NCBI GenBank assembly: GCA_021782175.1
Contig: JAJXVL010000001.1
Location: forward strand, 1-62,375
Source of the DNA: a bacterium
GTDB taxonomy: Bacteria; Patescibacteriota; Minisyncoccia; Phycocordibacterales; PALSA-1337
Reading direction: 5' to 3'
DNA length: 62,375 nt
In this document: one piece after another, positions 80-47,160 of the stretch
Layout: each line of letters begins with the position of its first letter
Numbering within the stretch: the stretch's first letter is position 1
Translations under genes and position numbers: made by a program
Notes under the pieces: model-generated
Told to the model about the DNA's origin: nothing
Database searches by the model: none
The model's input: the letters and a program-made list of their open reading frames with translations, nothing else

Positions 80-590
80 AGTACCAGTGACGCATTGTTC
101 TTTTGAGACAAAACGAATCTGCCAGACCTTCACCGATTGTTTCGTCTCGACCTTCGGCTTCGGCTCAAAAGAATAATGTGTCACTGGTACTTGAGTTTGT
201 GCCCAGACCCTTAGCCCCATCAATAGTAGTTTCTCGGAGAGTAGTTGTACCCTTAGTGGGAACTCTACTTAGGCCGATTATTCGGCTGAAGGAATACATT
301 TGAGACTACTGATCCCGCTGGGAAGTTCCCACTAAGGGTACAGCTACTCTCCTAGTAATACAGTCTCTCAAAAACTCTATTGATGGGGCTTTGGTATTGG
401 ATTCACTGATTAGTAGTCCTGAAAGTCCTAGAAGCATTGGAGAGGGACTTCAATGTTCGGTCGAAAGGACCCTGCGAGCGCGACTGGCGCGAGCATAGAG
501 GAGATTCCCAGCAGGGAATTTCCGTGTCCTGGAGACCGAATATTGAAGTCCCATGATGCTTCTGGGGCTAAAGTAAGGATTGTGCCTGAT
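80..590. repeat. Mosaic nested-palindrome intergenic repeat cluster, locus L1. It contains a 28-bp hairpin (80-107/164-191), P arms near 213-240/364-390 enclosing Q arms 237-263/325-351, a G spacer at 391-425, and a D multi-helix module at 427-567.
   Basis: The arms were read directly from the sequence. Region 213-567 is the reverse complement of 32339-32682 with few differences. Confidence 0.85.
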
Positions 591-4197: not shown

Positions 4198-5451
4198 CTA
4201 TAGAGCCTTTCTAAATATGACTATGTGTGCATCGTTTGGATCTATTTTTTGTATAGCCTCCCTAATTTCCTCGATCCTGATTGAATCAATAGAGTTCAAA
4301 TACTCTTCGTCGCTATACGCAATACCAGTATTGATCACTCTCTGTACAGTGTAGCTTCTATGCTTATCTGGATCTATTGGTCGTATATCGAACGATCCAC
4401 GAAGTCCTGCTTTTACTGTATTCAATCTATCTTCAGAGATGATCTCTGGATTTTGTATTAGATCTTTTATTGCAGATATGGTTGCGTTCATGTCTTCCGG
4501 GCGCGTCTCAGCATAAAACCCCCAATAGCCACCACCGGGAACCTCGTTTGCTATTATTTCTGCAGAATAGACCAACTTCCTTTCTTCGCGAAGTACTTTA
4601 TACAAAGGTGAATCCAAGCCGCCAAATCCAAAAATATGTTCCACCAAGCTCCTGCGAAATCTCTCTTTTAAAGACATTTTATCGGCTATAGGAAAAAGTA
4701 CTAATACAATGGACAACTCGTGTTCGGTCTTTATTGATGTTACTACACCGCGTTGCCACACGGGAAGCACACCGTAACTCGCGGCAGAGTGTCTCGGAGA
4801 CAAACCTCGTTTCTGGATGAGTGGTACCAGTGTATCCAATTCTGATAGTAGTTTCTTTTCGTCCAGGTTTCCGCTCACAAACAAGGCACACCGTGAACGA
4901 TCATAATTGTATTCCTGGGCCTTGCGTAGAATGCTCGGATTCATTGACGCTAATGATTTTTCATTACCGAGCACTGGATGGCCAAAAGGGTGCCCTTTCC
5001 AAATTATCCCAGGTAATTCATAAGTTACAAAACTCCTCAGTGAAGCTTTTTTTCTAGTGATTTCTTGGAGGATTATATCGCGTTCGGCATAGATGGCAGT
5101 ATCAGTCATCAATGGCTGTGCCATCAAATCTGTTATAGTGGATAGCGCTTCACGCCATATGCTCACTGGTACATGTGCATGATATGTTGTCGCATGTGTA
5201 GAAGTATACGCGCCCACACTTCCTCCGTGTCTAGATATATAGCCTTTTGTATCTGTGTATCCACCAGGATATTTGGATGTTCCACGGAATGGCACATGCT
5301 CAAACCAGTGATAGAGTCCCGGCGATCCTACACTCTCATCATCAGCACTACCCACGAACATAGTCCAGCTCATGCTGACTGAACGTACATCTGGAAGATG
5401 CTCAAAATATACTGTGATTCCAGACGATCCTTCGATTTTTTTGAATTTCAT
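4198..5451 (-). CDS. M16-family zinc metallopeptidase (pitrilysin/insulinase-like)
   Basis: It carries the inverted zinc motif HxxEH (HWFEH) near the N-terminus within a ~417-aa ORF. The start was trimmed to MKFKKIEG. The gene is visibly AT-rich relative to its neighbours. Confidence 0.75.
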   Translation of the reverse strand: MKFKKIEGSSGITVYFEHLPDVRSVSMSWTMFVGSADDESVGSPGLYHWFEHVPFRGTSKYPGGYTDTKGYISRHGGSVGAYTSTHATTYHAHVPVSIWREALSTITDLMAQPLMTDTAIYAERDIILQEITRKKASLRSFVTYELPGIIWKGHPFGHPVLGNEKSLASMNPSILRKAQEYNYDRSRCALFVSGNLDEKKLLSELDTLVPLIQKRGLSPRHSAASYGVLPVWQRGVVTSIKTEHELSIVLVLFPIADKMSLKERFRRSLVEHIFGFGGLDSPLYKVLREERKLVYSAEIIANEVPGGGYWGFYAETRPEDMNATISAIKDLIQNPEIISEDRLNTVKAGLRGSFDIRPIDPDKHRSYTVQRVINTGIAYSDEEYLNSIDSIRIEEIREAIQKIDPNDAHIVIFRKAL

Positions 5452-6020
5452 TTTATAAAAATAGGGCATCTGCAAAGACGCCCTGAACTGACATTGTTTG
5501 GTTAGCGCCCTTCCCCGGTGCTTCCGTCTCCGTTGCCGGAGGAATCGGAATCACCTTCGTAGGACGGACAACCCGTATCGTCGCTTTCGCTGCTTTCGCG
5601 AGACATGGCGAATTCGTGATTGAGGTTAGAATGTGCTCTGCTGTGTCCGTATTAGGCAAACGGATGCCGTCAACCATCCACAGTGTGTGGATGAAAATCA
5701 CCTTTCCGGACGATCTTCGGATACAACCGTTTCATCCCAGTAATCACCTGGAATGTCAGGCTCTTTTACTATACTACTCATATTTTTCCTTTGTTTTAGC
5801 AGACATGCATCATAATGTCTGCTACAGTGTGCGACCATCCATTATTAGATGGTAGCACCGGTTCCACAGATAGCATACATTTGTAATAAAAAATGTCAAT
5901 ATACAAGCTTATGTCATTACCGAGCCTGATTCGTTCGATATTTGACAGGTTGGGATTGGAAAGTTCCGACTAGGATGACTCGTTTGCGGTTCGGCCTCTT
6001 TGTGCTAAAGTCAGCCTGTT

Positions 6021-11212: not shown

Positions 11213-11557
11213 CACTTCTCTGTAGAAGCTCTCAACCCAAGCCCCATCCCTAGTAGTTTTTGAGAACCCTGCGGAACTCGCTACGCTCCCGCTCCGCTCA
11301 GACAGTCCTCGGTCTCTCAAAAACTCTAGGAATGGGGCTTGGGGTAGTGACTAACCATATCCATTCCTCTACACCAAGCAACAGTCTCTCTCGTGTGTCT
11401 CATAGCCCAATGCTTCTAGGGCTAACTTGGTTTAATAATATTTCAAGTGAGTTCCCACTAGGTACAACCAGTTCCCCGAGAAACTACTATTGATGTGGCT
11501 AGGTCTGGGTACGCTTAAGTTAAGCGGAGTCCTCACTAAGATTACAGAGTACTCTCC
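11213..11557. repeat. Mosaic nested-palindrome repeat cluster, locus L2. It contains a P hairpin in reverse orientation at 11241-11338, a D right arm, a Q right arm + P right arm, and the tail.
   Basis: It shares modules with 24963-25087, 27911-28035 and 28050-28110, read directly from the sequence. Confidence 0.8.
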
Positions 11558-24832: not shown

Positions 24833-25125
24833 ATATCGGAGAACAGGTTGTCTGTCGGAGAGTAGCTGTACCCTTAGCGGGAACTCCACTTGAAATATCA
24901 TTAAACCGAGTTAGCTCTAGAAGCATTGGGACTTCAATGCTTCTAGGGCTTTCAGGACTGCCAATCAGTGAATCCAATACCAAGGCCCCGTCAATAGAGT
25001 TTTTGAGAGACCGAGGACTGTCTGAGCGGAGCGGGAGCGTAGCGAGTTTCGCAGGGCTCTCAAAAACTACTATTGATGGGGCTAAAGTCTGGGTGCGATT
25101 AAGTTAAGTAGCAGTACTCAAGTAA
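24833..25125. repeat. Mosaic nested-palindrome repeat cluster, locus L3. It contains left Q-type arms at 24833-24893, a short D hairpin at 24917-24947, and G + P hairpin + tail at 24963-25125.
   Basis: 24963-25087 matches 27911-28035 at 124 of 125 positions (hand comparison). Confidence 0.88.
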
Positions 25126-27664: not shown

Positions 27665-28186
27665 TTACATTAGTAGTTTTTCCAGAGAAAATGTGTTTTT
27701 TGGAGGATAACCATTTCAATCTGATGAGCCCTCAGGTAGTTGGTCTCTAATAGCCCTAGAAGCATTGGGGTTCTGAGACACGCTGTCGGCACGGCCATCG
27801 TGTCGCAGCTCGTGCTCGCCGACGCGAGGAAATAGACATGATAATGTTCGATGTGCGTCGGCTCCGCAAGGTCTCATCACCCCAATGCTTCTATGTCTTT
27901 CATGAGTAATAATCAGTGAATCCAATACCAAGGCCCCATCAATAGAGTTTTTGAGAGACCGAGGACTGTCTGAGCGGAGCGGGAGCGTAGCGAGTTTCGC
28001 AGGGCTCTCAAAAACTACTATTGATGGGGCTAAAGGTTCCAGGATGTTCTAAGCGAAGTTCCCACTAAGGGTACAGCTACTCTCCGAGAAACTACTATTG
28101 ATGGGGCTAAAGGTTTCAGGATGTTCTAAGTAGAGTTCCCACCAGGGTACAACCTGTTCTCCGACAGACAACTTGTTATCCGATAT
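27665..28186. repeat. Mosaic nested-palindrome repeat cluster, locus L4. It contains the E leader, D arms at 27753-27770/27879-27895 with a ~110-nt loop, G + P hairpin at 27911-28035, and a tandem ~72-nt tail/Q-right/P-right unit x2 at 28014-28160. It ends with Q-type right arms at 28126-28186.
   Basis: All modules were read directly from the sequence and are shared with L1-L3, L5 and L6. Confidence 0.88.
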
Positions 28187-32299: not shown

Positions 32300-32715
32300 A
32301 ACTTCACTAGAGAAGCTCTCAGGTAGTCAGTCTCGAATAGCCCCAGAAGCATCAGGGGACTTCAATATTCGGTCTCCAGGACACGGAAATTCCCTGCTGG
32401 GAATTTCCTCTATGCCAGGCAACAGTCGCGCTCGCAGGGTCCTTTCGACAGAACATTGAAGTCCCCTGAGGATTTGAGGTATTTCAGCAGCGAATCAATA
32501 CCAAAGCCCCATCAATAGAGTTTTTGAGAGACCGTATTGTTAGGAGAGTAGCTGTACCCTTAGTGGGAACATTCCCAGCGGGATCAGTAGTCTAAAATGT
32601 ATTCCTTCAGCCTAATAATCGGCCTAAGTAGAGTTCCCACTAAGGGTACAGCTACTCTCCGAGAAACTACTATTGATGGGTCTAAGGTCTGGGCGCGATT
32701 AAGTTAAATGGAGTT
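32300..32715. repeat. Mosaic nested-palindrome repeat cluster, locus L5. It contains the D multi-helix module at 32339-32470, the P stem enclosing the Q hairpin at 32505-32682, and the tail.
   Basis: It is the reverse complement of 213-567 with scattered substitutions. Confidence 0.88.
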
Positions 32716-46894: not shown

Positions 46895-47098
46895 AAGTCA
46901 TTAGTTTTTCCAGATCCTTAGTCCCGTTAGTATTAGTTTCTTAGAAAATAAGTTGTTTTTCGGAGAACAGGTTGTACCCTTGTGGGAACTCTACTTAGGC
47001 CGATTATTCGGCTGAAGGAATACATTTTAGACTACTGATCCCGCTCTAGAATGTTCCCACAAGGGTACAACCTGTTCTCCTCACAACTGCTCGGTCTC
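46895..47098. repeat. Mosaic nested-palindrome repeat cluster, locus L6. It contains the E leader and a Q-variant hairpin at 46961-47080 with the same ~60-nt loop as L1/L5.
   Basis: The arms GGAGAACAGGTTGTACCCTTGTGGGAAC / GTTCCCACAAGGGTACAACCTGTTCTCC are perfectly complementary. They differ from the L1 arms at paired positions. Confidence 0.85.
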
Positions 47099-47132
47099 TC
47101 AAAAACAAAAGTCTCCTCGAAAGGAGACTTTT
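47099..47132 (-). terminator. Rho-independent terminator downstream of rpsI (9-bp stem AAGTCTCCT/AGGAGACTT, then TTTTGTTTTT on the minus strand)
   Basis: The sequence was read directly. Confidence 0.75.
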
Positions 47133-47160
47133 GGAATTTGATGAAAATGAAGCGACTTCC

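What the first reader, a model, noticed from the sequence alone, without database searches (positions are those of the whole stretch)
213..390. The same outer stem carries different cargo: hairpin-in-hairpin architecture with a covarying inner stem
In L1 (213-390) and its reverse-complement twin L5 (32505-32682), the P arms do not enclose the 47-nt loop seen in L2-L4. They enclose a complete second hairpin, Q, with a 27-bp stem (237-263/325-351) and a ~60-nt loop that contains a small GCCGA-TTAT-TCGGC hairpin.

Locus L6 (46961-47080) has the same Q loop without P arms. Its stem is GGAGAACAGGTTGTACCCTTGTGGGAAC / GTTCCCACAAGGGTACAACCTGTTCTCC. Several positions differ from L1 (GTAGCT vs ACAGGT, TTAGTGGG vs TTGTGGG), and each change is mirrored on the partner arm so pairing stays perfect.

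This looks like either repeated insertion of palindromes into each other's loops or modular RNA domains being swapped.
Basis: seen in the sequence. Interest (0 to 1): 0.6.

Follow-up and report, generated by a model that had tools for sequence, protein, structure and literature searches.

The report
Nested palindromic DNA repeats in Taylorbacteria
The hairpin-inside-a-hairpin is real, but it is two kinds of gene-less selfish DNA repeat stacked on each other in a tiny-genome (CPR) bacterium, and the "covarying" stem is best explained by one arm being copied from the other as DNA, not by selection on an RNA.

Summary
Observation confirmed, with two corrections. The Q stem is 28 bp (236-263/325-352, one T·G). 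L6 is not free of P arms; it keeps decayed ones.

The window is a contig of a Candidatus Taylorbacteria (Patescibacteria) MAG. Q belongs to a genus-restricted family of ~115-nt foldback elements, found in 8 of 93 species and ~45 distinct copies. A ~60-nt apical core with three conserved sequence blocks sits on a 26-41-bp stem. The two arms of a copy are ~95% complementary, yet arms of different copies are almost as unlike as shuffled sequence.

The evidence points to DNA-level palindrome maintenance:
- no G·U excess in the stems
- mirrored indels
- random orientation relative to genes
- in-frame copies inside polA (two species, opposite orientations) and dnaE
- no Rfam match
- one copy whose 5' arm is the conserved 3' end of uvrC, so its 3' arm is an inverted copy of host coding DNA

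P is an independent family: 35 arms in this genome and one element in one other species. At an orthologous locus in that species the same P arms hold the standard 43-nt loop instead of Q. Modular cargo exchange is therefore supported; swapped RNA domains are not. No mobilising enzyme was found. This is a new variant of REP/MITE/RPE-type repeats.

The parts
213..235 (+). P left arm (PA type, AGCCCCATCAATAGTAGTTTCTC)
   Evidence: It is one of 35 P arms in the genome.
236..263 (+). Q left arm, stem type Q1 (GGAGAGTAGTTGTACCCTTAGTGGGAAC)
   Evidence: (D8, I18). It pairs with 325-352 over 28 bp, with one T245·G343 mismatch.
264..324 (+). Q apical core, 61 nt. Conserved blocks are AAC|TCTAC, GGCTGAAG and TCCCGCTGGGAA. 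The small hairpin GCCGA-TTAT-TCGGC lies at 273-286.
   Evidence: Covariance model R1 scores 137.7 bits on this strand and 61 on the other. The conserved blocks are seen across 28 diverse copies.
325..352 (+). Q right arm (GTTCCCACTAAGGGTACAGCTACTCTCC)
353..390 (+). An unpaired spacer (TAGTAATACA) followed by the P right arm (PB type, GTCTCTCAAAAACTCTATTGATGGGGCT)
   Evidence: The PA/PB asymmetry (TAGTAG against TAGAG) is the same as in standard P copies.
391..570 (+). Adjoining mosaic that travels with the compound: a linker, the R module (CCTAGAAGCATTGG) and the S module (444-552)
   Evidence: I5, I7, I14; S has 16 copies in the genome; alignment of compound copies.
32505..32682 (-). L5, the reverse-complement twin of L1. 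Q arms are 32543-32570 and 32633-32660 (28/28 bp), the core is 32571-32632, and P arms lie outside.
   Evidence: I1, I6, I24; 141.7 bits on the - strand. The orthologous rplI-rpmA spacer in G445 is about 14 bp, against 503 bp here.
46917..46961 (+). Decayed left P arm and spacer upstream of L6
   Evidence: (I13).
46962..47080 (+). L6, the Q element with stem type Q2. It has a perfect 28-bp stem (46962-46989 / 47053-47080) and a core at 46990-47052. It lies between the rpsI terminator and grpE.
   Evidence: (134.2 bits). It is absent from the same spacer in every relative inspected.
47081..47106 (+). Remnant of the inner right P arm (CTCGGTCTCTCAAAAAC), cut off by the rpsI terminator at 47110-47135
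   Evidence: PB hit 47106-47092, 100%.
24857..24884 (+). Solo Q1-type arm with no partner arm, within a mosaic cluster
28049..28162 (-). Two tandem 77-nt 'half compounds' (P arm + Q arm + the first 9 nt of the core). The solo Q1 arm is 28058-28085 and the solo Q2 arm is 28135-28162.
   Evidence: (D2, D6, D20).
27928..28031 (+). Standard P element: the same arms with the 43-nt loop. The other copies in the window are 24980-25083 and 11240-11343.
   Evidence: I2, I3; Ploop47 has 12 copies, 10 of them 100% identical.

Best explanation
L1 and L5 are compound copies of two independent, gene-less palindromic DNA repeat families in a Candidatus Taylorbacteria (Patescibacteria/CPR) genome.

Q is a local member of a genus-restricted family of ~115-nt foldback elements. 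Each has an asymmetric ~60-nt apical core with three conserved sequence blocks: AAC|TCCAC at the 5' junction, GCYTRAAG in the middle, and TCCCGCTGGGAATG|TT at the 3' junction. The core sits on a 26-41-bp stem whose sequence is specific to each copy.

The stem does not stay complementary because a folded RNA is selected. It stays complementary because one arm is copied from the other at the DNA level. This is intramolecular template switching at a palindrome, here called 'mirror copying'. The same process lets the palindrome grow outward into host flanking DNA. That is why cores can be near-identical while arms are unrelated, and why indels are mirrored.

P is a second, younger family essentially confined to this lineage. 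The P(Q1) compound arose when a Q hairpin took the place of the 43-nt P loop. That could have happened by insertion into the hairpin tip or by ectopic gene conversion between P copies; the data do not separate the two. The compound then spread further as a unit, inside larger mosaics with the R and S modules.

Shown:
- the anatomy of the elements
- the copy census
- the distribution across genomes
- DNA-like mismatch statistics in the stems
- in-frame copies inside genes
- one arm derived from host sequence
- an orthologous site carrying different cargo
- empty sites in relatives

Inferred:
- the template-switch mechanism
- homogenisation of cores by repair centred on the hairpin tip
- the existence of an unknown factor that reads the conserved core
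For: Census in this genome (546 kb, 63 contigs):
- 9 Q cores on 3 stem types
- about 8 solo Q arms
- 35 P arms
- 12 standard P loops

Distribution of the family:
- Model R1 hits 8 of 93 genomes of the genus, with up to 11 or more copies per genome.
- An order-wide pattern scan gives 4 hits outside the genus against 3 in the reversed-pattern control.
- In a scan of 185,579 species genomes, all hits in more than one copy per genome are Taylorbacteria/Minisyncoccia MAGs. Seven singletons lie in unrelated phyla, about what chance predicts.
- On a PolA tree the carriers are interspersed with non-carriers: 4 changes are needed, no better than shuffled labels.

Stems:
- 42 copies give 1384 stem positions with 72 mismatches.
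- 5'-arm identity between copies is 0.52-0.67 (shuffled arms give 0.48). Core identity is 0.66-0.85.
- Seven G443 copies have cores 98.4% identical on stems roughly 50% different.
- Mismatch types are 10 G:T/T:G, 19 A:C/C:A and 29 transversion-type.

The core has no conserved internal helix apart from the invariant TCCC/GGGA.

Orientation relative to neighbouring ORFs is random: 9 convergent, 8 divergent, 17 tandem (10 antisense, 7 sense).

In-frame copies without stop codons:
- the PolA linker in G443 (antisense) and G460 (sense)
- DnaE in G443

Mirror copy:
- In G460 the 5' arm equals the last 9 codons of uvrC (RRSKRVLS*).
- This tail is conserved in non-carrier orthologues: G007 has HRKRRSKGMRGN* and G004 has HRKRLRKRVLNFGG*.
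- 29 relatives align to residues 430-435 of 436.
- The 3' arm is its inverted copy.

Cargo exchange and empty sites:
- G445:C37 and G000:C20 share the order gene - tRNA-Ile - pilin-like gene - R - linker - P arms - start of a solo arm.
- There the P loop is the 43-nt standard in G445 and Q1 in G000.
- The rplI-rpmA spacer is about 14 bp in G445 against 503 bp here.
- The rpsI-grpE spacer holds no Q in any relative inspected.

No Rfam match.
Against: - No mobilising enzyme was identified.
- No insertion polymorphism between close strains was available. The nearest relatives are only about 66-80% identical in flanking genes.
- No target-site duplications were seen.
- The three core blocks are conserved across species. 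That implies selection for something, which could be an RNA or a host function rather than mobility.
- Mirror copying from host DNA is demonstrated for only one copy (uvrC in G460), not for the copies in this window.
- In G443 the inner ~20 bp of the stems are homologous between copies (..AACATCAYYC..GAAGAAC). So only the outer part of a stem can be host-derived, and part of the stem divergence must have another cause.
- The 19:10 excess of A:C over G:T mismatches would, if real, fit wobble pairing in a transcript of the opposite strand. It is not significant.
Confidence: 0.7

Rival explanations
1. Q (and P) are structured non-coding RNAs. The conserved core would be a functional RNA module, such as a protein-binding handle, a ribozyme or a 3'-end stabiliser. 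The long closing stem would covary under selection for pairing, and P/Q nesting would reflect modular RNA architecture.
For: - The core has three blocks conserved across 8 species, while the stem sequence is free but always paired.
- The model scores the core-sense strand well above the antisense strand.
- Many copies lie 3-18 nt after stop codons, so they are probably transcribed into mRNA 3' ends.
- L1 has one T·G pair that would be a U·G wobble.
Against: - There is no G·U excess on the core-sense strand: 10 against 19.
- Indels are mirrored between arms.
- Orientation relative to genes and type of intergenic spacer are both random.
- Copies lie in frame inside polA in opposite orientations, and inside dnaE.
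- One arm is host uvrC coding DNA.
- There is no covarying helix inside the core.
- No Rfam family matches.
- Perfect duplexes of 28-41 bp are RNase III substrates rather than typical bacterial RNA helices (general knowledge).
- Carriage is patchy: 8 of 93 species.
Confidence: 0.1
2. Ordinary non-autonomous transposons. Either MITEs whose terminal inverted repeats are bound by a DDE transposase encoded elsewhere, or REP/REPIN elements moved by a RAYT (Y1 HUH) enzyme. Nesting would come from insertion of one element into another.
For: - They are multi-copy, intergenic, palindromic and 100-180 bp long.
- Their distribution is patchy.
- In this genome all three Q stem types begin with GGAGA and end with TCTCC, which could be a short terminal repeat.
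- This genome does encode a Y1 transposase.
Against: - Arms are not conserved between copies or species.
- There are no flanking direct repeats.
- The Y1 gene of this genome (C53:7475-7905) is an IS200-type TnpA with its own unrelated flanking hairpins, which occur nowhere else in the genome.
- G460 is 96% complete in 3 contigs and has 11 or more copies, yet it has no PF01797 match. Non-carriers G010 and G017 have strong ones.
- Other transposase families were not searched.
Confidence: 0.1
3. Domesticated host elements. The hairpins would be kept because they act as bidirectional terminators, mRNA 3' stabilisers or binding sites for a nucleoid or replication protein. The conserved core would be a protein-binding site, and the repeats would spread only by duplication and recombination.
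For: - Several copies fill the whole spacer between convergent genes: 3/5, -1/8, 8/18 and 17/8 nt from the two stop codons.
- The invariant TCCCGCTGGGA is itself a near-palindrome, as protein-binding sites often are.
- The P element and its mosaic are 93-100% identical between G000 and G445, although a neighbouring gene is only 66% identical in protein.
Against: - 85 of 93 species of the genus do without them.
- As many copies lie between divergent genes as between convergent ones.
- Copies inside polA and dnaE cannot be terminators.
- L6 sits downstream of a separate, ordinary rpsI terminator.
Confidence: 0.1

Closest known systems
Rickettsia palindromic elements (RPE)
   Same: - Both are ~100-150-bp hairpin-forming repeats in a reduced genome.
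- Both lack a gene of their own.
- Both are found between genes and also in frame inside essential protein genes, where they add a peptide segment. For RPE this is summarised in PMC10969869; here the genes are polA and dnaE.
   Different: - The phylum is different, and no sequence relation to RPE is known or was tested.
- Here the apical core is the conserved part and the arms are copy-specific.
- One arm is demonstrably copied from host DNA.
- RPE families are defined by overall sequence similarity, including a conserved encoded peptide. Here the two polA copies are read in different frames and orientations.
REP / BIME / REPIN elements with RAYT (TnpA-REP) enzymes of Enterobacteria and Pseudomonas
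   Same: - Both are palindromic extragenic repeats.
- Both occur in mosaic clusters built from a few module types.
- Both occur as doublets and as compound units that spread together.
   Different: - REPs are ~20-35-nt imperfect palindromes with a conserved sequence (a GTAG head), read by a RAYT encoded in the same genome (general knowledge).
- Here the stems are 26-41 bp and not conserved in sequence.
- There is no RAYT association.
Bacterial MITEs such as Correia/NEMIS (Neisseria) and ERIC, and the pneumococcal BOX/RUP/SPRITE repeats
   Same: - They are small, gene-less, hairpin-forming and multi-copy.
- Pneumococcal repeats are found bunched together and inserted into one another, and Correia elements can invert (PMC10969869). 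These parallel the P(Q) nesting here and the opposite core orientations in the two polA copies.
   Different: - MITEs keep conserved terminal inverted repeats and make target-site duplications.
- Here the ends vary, the centre is conserved, and no duplications were seen.
Quasipalindrome template-switch mutagenesis (Ripley model; thyA and T4 rII hotspots). This is a mechanism, not an element family.
   Same: It explains three things seen here:
- simultaneous mirrored changes in both arms, including indels
- conversion of imperfect palindromes into perfect ones
- outward growth of a palindrome by copying the flank of one arm
   Different: - It is known as a source of point-mutation hotspots in short quasipalindromes.
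- Its role here, as the routine maintenance and growth mechanism of a whole repeat family, is my inference.

Membership tests
MITE (miniature inverted-repeat transposable element) | Terminal inverted repeats conserved among the copies of a family | tested here: not met
   5'-arm identity between copies is 0.52-0.67, against 0.48 for shuffled arms, while cores are 0.66-0.85 identical. See also the arm lists.
MITE (miniature inverted-repeat transposable element) | Target-site duplication flanking each copy | tested here: not met
   No direct repeats are visible at the outer ends of the stems in G443 or at the borders of the P(Q) compounds. This was checked by eye only.
MITE (miniature inverted-repeat transposable element) | A parent insertion sequence with matching ends and a transposase | tested here: inconclusive
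   Only PF01797 was searched. Other transposase families were not tested. No ORF lies inside any copy.
REP/REPIN with RAYT | A RAYT (Y1 HUH) gene in genomes that carry the repeats | tested here: not met
   G460 (96% complete, 11 or more copies) and G033 have no PF01797 match. The G000 gene is an IS200-type TnpA with its own unrelated hairpins. Non-carriers have strong matches.
REP/REPIN with RAYT | A short (~20-35 nt) imperfect palindrome of conserved sequence | tested here: not met
   Stems are 26-41 bp, of free sequence, and carry a ~60-nt conserved loop.
Rickettsia palindromic elements (RPE)-like behaviour | Palindromic repeat copies inserted in frame into protein-coding genes without disrupting them | tested here: met
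   PolA of G443 and G460 gives intact 834-aa ORFs with complete Pfam domains, with the element at residues ~319-358. DnaE of G443 also carries a copy.
Rickettsia palindromic elements (RPE)-like behaviour | Sequence membership in one of the described RPE families | not tested
   No RPE sequences were compared. The host phylum differs, so only the behaviour is claimed, not membership.
BIME-type mosaic repeat clusters | Clusters built from a small set of modules in varying combinations | tested here: met
   P arms, the P loop, Q arms, the Q core, R, S and linkers recur in different combinations at six spacers of the window and on more than 15 contigs.
Described structured RNA family (Rfam) | A match to an Rfam covariance model | tested here: not met
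   The whole window gives no match at gathering score. Region 150-620 at E<=10 gives only chance miRNA/snoRNA hits. Six loci of relatives give only tRNAs elsewhere.
Structured RNA in general | Strand-specific signatures: a G·U excess on the sense strand and an orientation bias relative to transcription | tested here: not met
   10 G:T/T:G against 19 A:C/C:A. Orientation classes are 9/8/10/7.
Structured RNA in general | A discrete transcript | not testable with these tools

The most novel reading that the evidence does not exclude
The elements may be a distinct class of mobile 'foldback' DNA specific to CPR bacteria. In this reading the only heritable, recognised part is the ~60-nt apical core plus about 7 bp of inner stem. 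An unknown factor, or the DNA structure itself, causes breakage at the stem-core junctions (AAC|TCC and AATG|TTC). Repair by fold-back priming then both copies the core into new hairpin tips and rebuilds the arms from whatever host DNA lies next to it. Mobility would then not depend on terminal repeat sequences at all. This is the reverse of the logic of all described bacterial MITE and REP systems.
Probability: 0.25. Interest if true: 0.8.

Novelty: new variant of a known kind. Interest (0 to 1): 0.55.

Why it matters
CPR/Patescibacteria genomes are usually described as small, streamlined and poor in repeats. Here the intergenic spacers of a ~0.6-Mb genome are filled with stacked palindromic modules.

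One family shows an inverted logic: a conserved centre and free ends. It also inserts in frame into polA and dnaE, and at least one arm was made by mirror-copying host coding DNA.

If this is general, three things follow:
- It gives a concrete, testable example of palindromes that grow and repair themselves by template switching.
- It warns against reading 'compensatory' changes in long perfect hairpins as RNA covariation.
- It explains why such MAGs assemble into many short contigs that end in repeats.

I found no description of such elements in CPR genomes in the searched literature.

Tried and rejected
1. Known RNA families. Rfam at gathering and permissive thresholds found nothing, on the window and on relatives' copies.
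2. A conserved fold inside the core ('T-shape'). RNAalifold on 28 diverse copies finds only the closing stem and the invariant TCCC/GGGA hairpin. The GCCGA/TCGGC hairpin is specific to this genome.
3. The core inserts into a pre-existing family of empty hairpins. A scan of G443 for ACATCAY...RTGATGT palindromes found only full elements plus chance-level hits.
4. RAYT/IS200 association. Rejected.
5. The stems as guide-like sequences matching other places. Not pursued beyond noting that Q1/Q2 arms recur only as solo arms inside the same mosaics.
6. A coding reading. An SD-like GGAGAA plus ATG opens a 95-aa frame from the Q3 stem on C17. It is not conserved in other copies, and the cores differ by indels, so I judged it spurious.
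7. Precise empty site for the polA copy. The linker is too divergent between G443 and its nearest relative G023, so this is inconclusive.
8. Metagenome and viral scans. The core type of this genome has no hit in JGI metagenomes. The family pattern adds only the same peatland genome plus two further contigs. There are none in viral contigs.
10. An earlier scan note speaks of a nearly invariant 55-nt core in 'about 50 related genomes'. For the Q core I find 8 of 93 genus genomes and only about 25 invariant positions. That note may refer to another module.
Full report
**What is at the coordinates**

- In L1, P arms (about 213-235 and 363-390) enclose a second hairpin, Q.
- The Q stem is 236-263 / 325-352. 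That is 28 bp with one T245·G343 mismatch.
- The Q loop is 61 nt (264-324) and contains GCCGA-TTAT-TCGGC (273-286).
- The 178-nt segment folds far better than shuffles on either strand (z = -12.4 and -11.5).
- L5 (32505-32682) is its reverse-complement twin, 95.5% identical over 200 nt.
- L6 (46962-47080) carries the same core on a perfect 28-bp stem. That stem differs from L1's by three substitutions and two indels, all mirrored on the other arm.

One correction. L6 is not free of P arms.
- Its similarity to L1 runs into both inner P arms.
- 47092-47106 is identical to the inner right P arm.
- 46917-46940 is a diverged left arm.
- The flanks still form a 57-nt, 79% complementary outer palindrome (I13).
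- The right P arm is cut off by the rpsI terminator.

**Census in the genome**

The window is the whole of contig C46 of a 546-kb, 63-contig MAG. That partial genome holds:
- 9 Q cores on three stem types. Q1 is GGAGAGTAGCTGTACCCTTAGTGGGAAC (6 copies). Q2 is GGAGAACAGGTTGTACCCTTGTGGGAAC (1 full copy). Q3 is GGAGAAACACAGAACATGACTTGTGGAAAC (2 copies, on C17 and C38).
- about 8 solo Q arms without a partner
- 35 P arms
- 12 standard P elements whose 43-nt loop is 100% identical in 10 copies
- 16 copies of a further module, S

The P(Q1) compound occurs four times in full (L1, L5, C25, C20:18.8k) and twice in truncated form. The copies are 93-97% alike. On one side they are embedded in the same linker-R-S mosaic. 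The compound therefore also spreads as a unit.

**The wider Q family**

A covariance model of the nine copies (R1) was searched against all 93 species genomes of the same genus. It found matches in eight.

| Genome | Copies found |
|---|---|
| this genome (G000) | 9 |
| G460 | 11 |
| G443 | 11 |
| G462 | 3 |
| G024 | 2 (more by pattern scan) |
| G469 | 2 |
| G437 | 1 |
| G033 | 1 |

- A pattern for the conserved blocks, run over 401 genomes of the order, gave four hits outside the genus against three in a reversed-pattern control.
- The same kind of pattern over 185,579 species genomes returned 29 loci in Candidatus Taylorbacteria / Minisyncoccia (Parcubacteria) MAGs. It also returned seven singletons in unrelated phyla, about the chance expectation.
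- JGI metagenomes added only the same peatland genome and two further contigs. Viral contigs added none.
- On a PolA tree the carriers are interspersed with non-carriers: 4 changes are needed and at least 3 are forced, no better than shuffled labels.

**Anatomy of the family**

Every copy is a 113-124-nt hairpin. Alignment of 28 diverse copies shows three conserved blocks:
- AAC|TCC(A/G)(C/T) at the 5' stem-core junction
- G(C/G)CTRAAG in the middle
- (C)TCCCGCTGGGAATG|TT at the 3' junction

There is no conserved helix inside the core except the invariant TCCC/GGGA.

Over 42 copies, 1384 stem positions carry 72 mismatches, which is about 95% complementarity. The 5' arms of different copies are only 0.52-0.67 identical, against 0.48 for shuffled arms. 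Cores are 0.66-0.85 identical.

The extreme case is G443. Seven copies have cores 98.4% identical on stems that differ at roughly half their positions.

So the 'covariation' is real and massive. The question is what causes it.

**RNA or DNA?**

All the tests I could run point to DNA.
- Stem mismatches show no wobble bias on the core-sense strand: 10 G:T/T:G against 19 A:C/C:A and 29 transversion-type.
- Differences between stem types include mirrored indels (Q1 against Q2).
- Orientation relative to neighbouring ORFs is random. The spacer types occur in the 1:1:2 ratio expected for blind insertion: 9 convergent, 8 divergent, 17 tandem, of which 10 are antisense and 7 sense (the ORF calls are crude).
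- Three copies lie inside long ORFs without stop codons. Two are in the disordered linker of DNA polymerase I between the 5'-exonuclease and polymerase domains, in G443 (antisense) and G460 (sense), read in different frames. One decayed copy is in DnaE of G443.
- No Rfam family matches, in the window or in relatives' copies.

**Where the arms come from**

In G460 one element (locus L044, 1494-1619) starts inside the 3' end of uvrC (Pfam UvrC_RNaseH_dom and GIY-YIG).
- Its 5' arm, GAGGAGAAGCAAGAGGGTGTTGTCTTGAAGAAC, encodes the last nine codons, RRSKRVLS*.
- That tail is ancestral. Orthologues in 29 relatives that lack the element align to residues 430-435 of 436.
- They read HRKRRSKGMRGN* in G007, HRKRLRKRVLNFGG* in G004 and HRQRRGKGFV* in G002.
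- The 3' arm (GTTCTTCAAGACAACACCCTCCTAGCTCTCCTC) is therefore an inverted copy of host coding DNA.

This is direct evidence that the palindrome is built, or extended, by copying one flank onto the other side. It explains near-identical cores on unrelated outer arms, mirrored indels and perfect pairing. It is one case only. In G443 the inner ~20 bp of the stems are still homologous between copies, so only the outer stem can be host-derived there. Notes from other windows of this scan report the same behaviour in other CPR genomes. I treat them as leads and tested the idea independently here.

A second observation bears on the cores. Two G443 copies 5.9 kb apart share outer stem and flank but carry different cores and inner stems (L040 against L043). 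I found no 'empty' hairpins of that stem family. Replacement of the hairpin tip by recombination with another copy is the simplest reading. It is inferred, not shown.

**Is the nesting modular?**

Yes, at the DNA level.
- P and Q have independent distributions. None of the other seven Q carriers has P. The only other genome of the genus with P is G445, with one element, and it has no Q.
- The G445 P element lies at a locus orthologous to G000:C20:18.5-19.0 kb. The order is the same: a gene (66% protein identity), tRNA-Ile(tat), a pilin-like gene, the R module, the linker, the P arms, and the start of a solo Q2 arm.
- Between identical P arms, G445 has the standard 43-nt loop and G000 has the Q1 hairpin.
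- Q replaces the loop rather than interrupting it. The event may therefore have been gene conversion from another P(Q1) copy rather than a fresh insertion.

Empty sites also exist.
- The rplI-rpmA spacer is about 14 bp in G445 against 503 bp with the L5 mosaic here.
- The rpsI-grpE spacer that holds L6 is 5-60 bp, or holds an unrelated small ORF, in every relative inspected.

**What moves them?**

Unknown.
- The one Y1 (HUH) transposase of this genome (C53:7475-7905) is an IS200-type TnpA. It is flanked by its own small hairpins, which occur nowhere else in the genome.
- G460, with 11 or more elements and 96% completeness, has no such gene.
- Non-carriers have strong ones.
- Other enzyme families were not tested.

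**Proposed working**

Steps marked as shown or inferred.
1. The heritable unit is the core plus a short inner stem. This is inferred from the conservation gradient.
2. Long palindromes are kept perfect, and grow outward, by intramolecular template switching during replication or repair. This is shown in effect for uvrC. The mechanism itself is taken from established quasipalindrome mutagenesis.
3. Hairpin tips are break-prone and are repaired from other copies. That homogenises cores within a genome and lets one hairpin acquire another's tip, including P acquiring Q. The exchange is shown at one orthologous site. The mechanism is inferred.
4. Recombination between the two arms flips the core. 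This is consistent with the opposite orientations in polA and the random orientation overall, but it is inferred.
5. Compounds and mosaics then spread by duplication and ectopic recombination. This is shown by the census.

**Comparison with known systems**

- In behaviour the family is closest to Rickettsia palindromic elements, because of the in-frame copies in essential genes (PMC10969869).
- It also resembles REP/BIME mosaics, and nested MITE-like repeats such as pneumococcal BOX/RUP/SPRITE (PMC10969869).
- It fails the defining tests for a classical MITE, because it has no conserved terminal repeats and no target duplications.
- It fails the tests for REPIN/RAYT.
- The conserved-centre, free-ends logic and the host-derived arms make it a new variant of a known kind. 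I do not class it as categorically new, because no new enzyme or mechanism has been demonstrated.
- The searched literature holds no description of such elements in CPR genomes.

Noticed in passing
G000 contig C53:7430-7950 (locus L149): A single IS200-type Y1 transposase gene of about 143 aa (HUH motif HVHIM, YQLEYHIVWGTKYR). It is flanked on both sides by small hairpins preceded by GGAAACCCC. These hairpins occur nowhere else in the assembly.
   Followed up: partly
L184 (G445:C37) 1349-1557 against window 24913-25087 and 27883-28068: The R-linker-P mosaic is 93-100% identical between G445 and this genome, while a neighbouring orthologous gene is only 66% identical in protein. The repeats are far better conserved than the genes around them. 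That suggests horizontal spread or strong constraint.
   Followed up: partly
window 28005-28158: A 77-nt unit is tandemly duplicated. The unit is P arm + Q arm + the first 9 nt of the Q core + AACATCCTGRAACCTTTAG. In these solo 'half compounds' the sequence switches right after CTTAG. The same pentamer precedes P left arms (CCTTAG|CCCCATC), so it may be a recombination or junction site.
   Followed up: no
window 444-552 and 32356-32465: The S module is a ~109-nt multi-helix repeat (GGGACTTCAATGTTCGGTCGAAAGGACCC...). It has 16 copies in the partial genome and usually lies next to P.
   Followed up: no
PolA genes across the genus: In many species the PolA alignment breaks at two fixed places, around residues 135-139 and 316-370, with the ORF staying open. 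These look like recurrent sites of variable in-frame inserts. The linker at 316-370 differs in length by up to about 50 residues between species.
   Followed up: partly
L087 (G443, JAPLZI010000056.1) 5362-5508: A Q-family core with a decayed 3' arm lies in frame inside dnaE (DNA polymerase III alpha), between the finger and HhH domains.
   Followed up: partly
window 80-191: Another long inverted repeat (arms 80-112 / 159-191, 88% complementary) lies just upstream of L1. It is unrelated in sequence to P and Q.
   Followed up: no
L005 (G024:C4) 1345-1624: Two Q-family elements with unrelated stems lie back to back in opposite orientation, 30 nt apart.
   Followed up: no
G000 contig ends (C16, C50, C61, C47, C53, C40): Many contigs of this MAG begin or end inside P or Q modules. 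The repeats probably cause the fragmentation of the assembly, and the copy numbers given are lower bounds.
   Followed up: no
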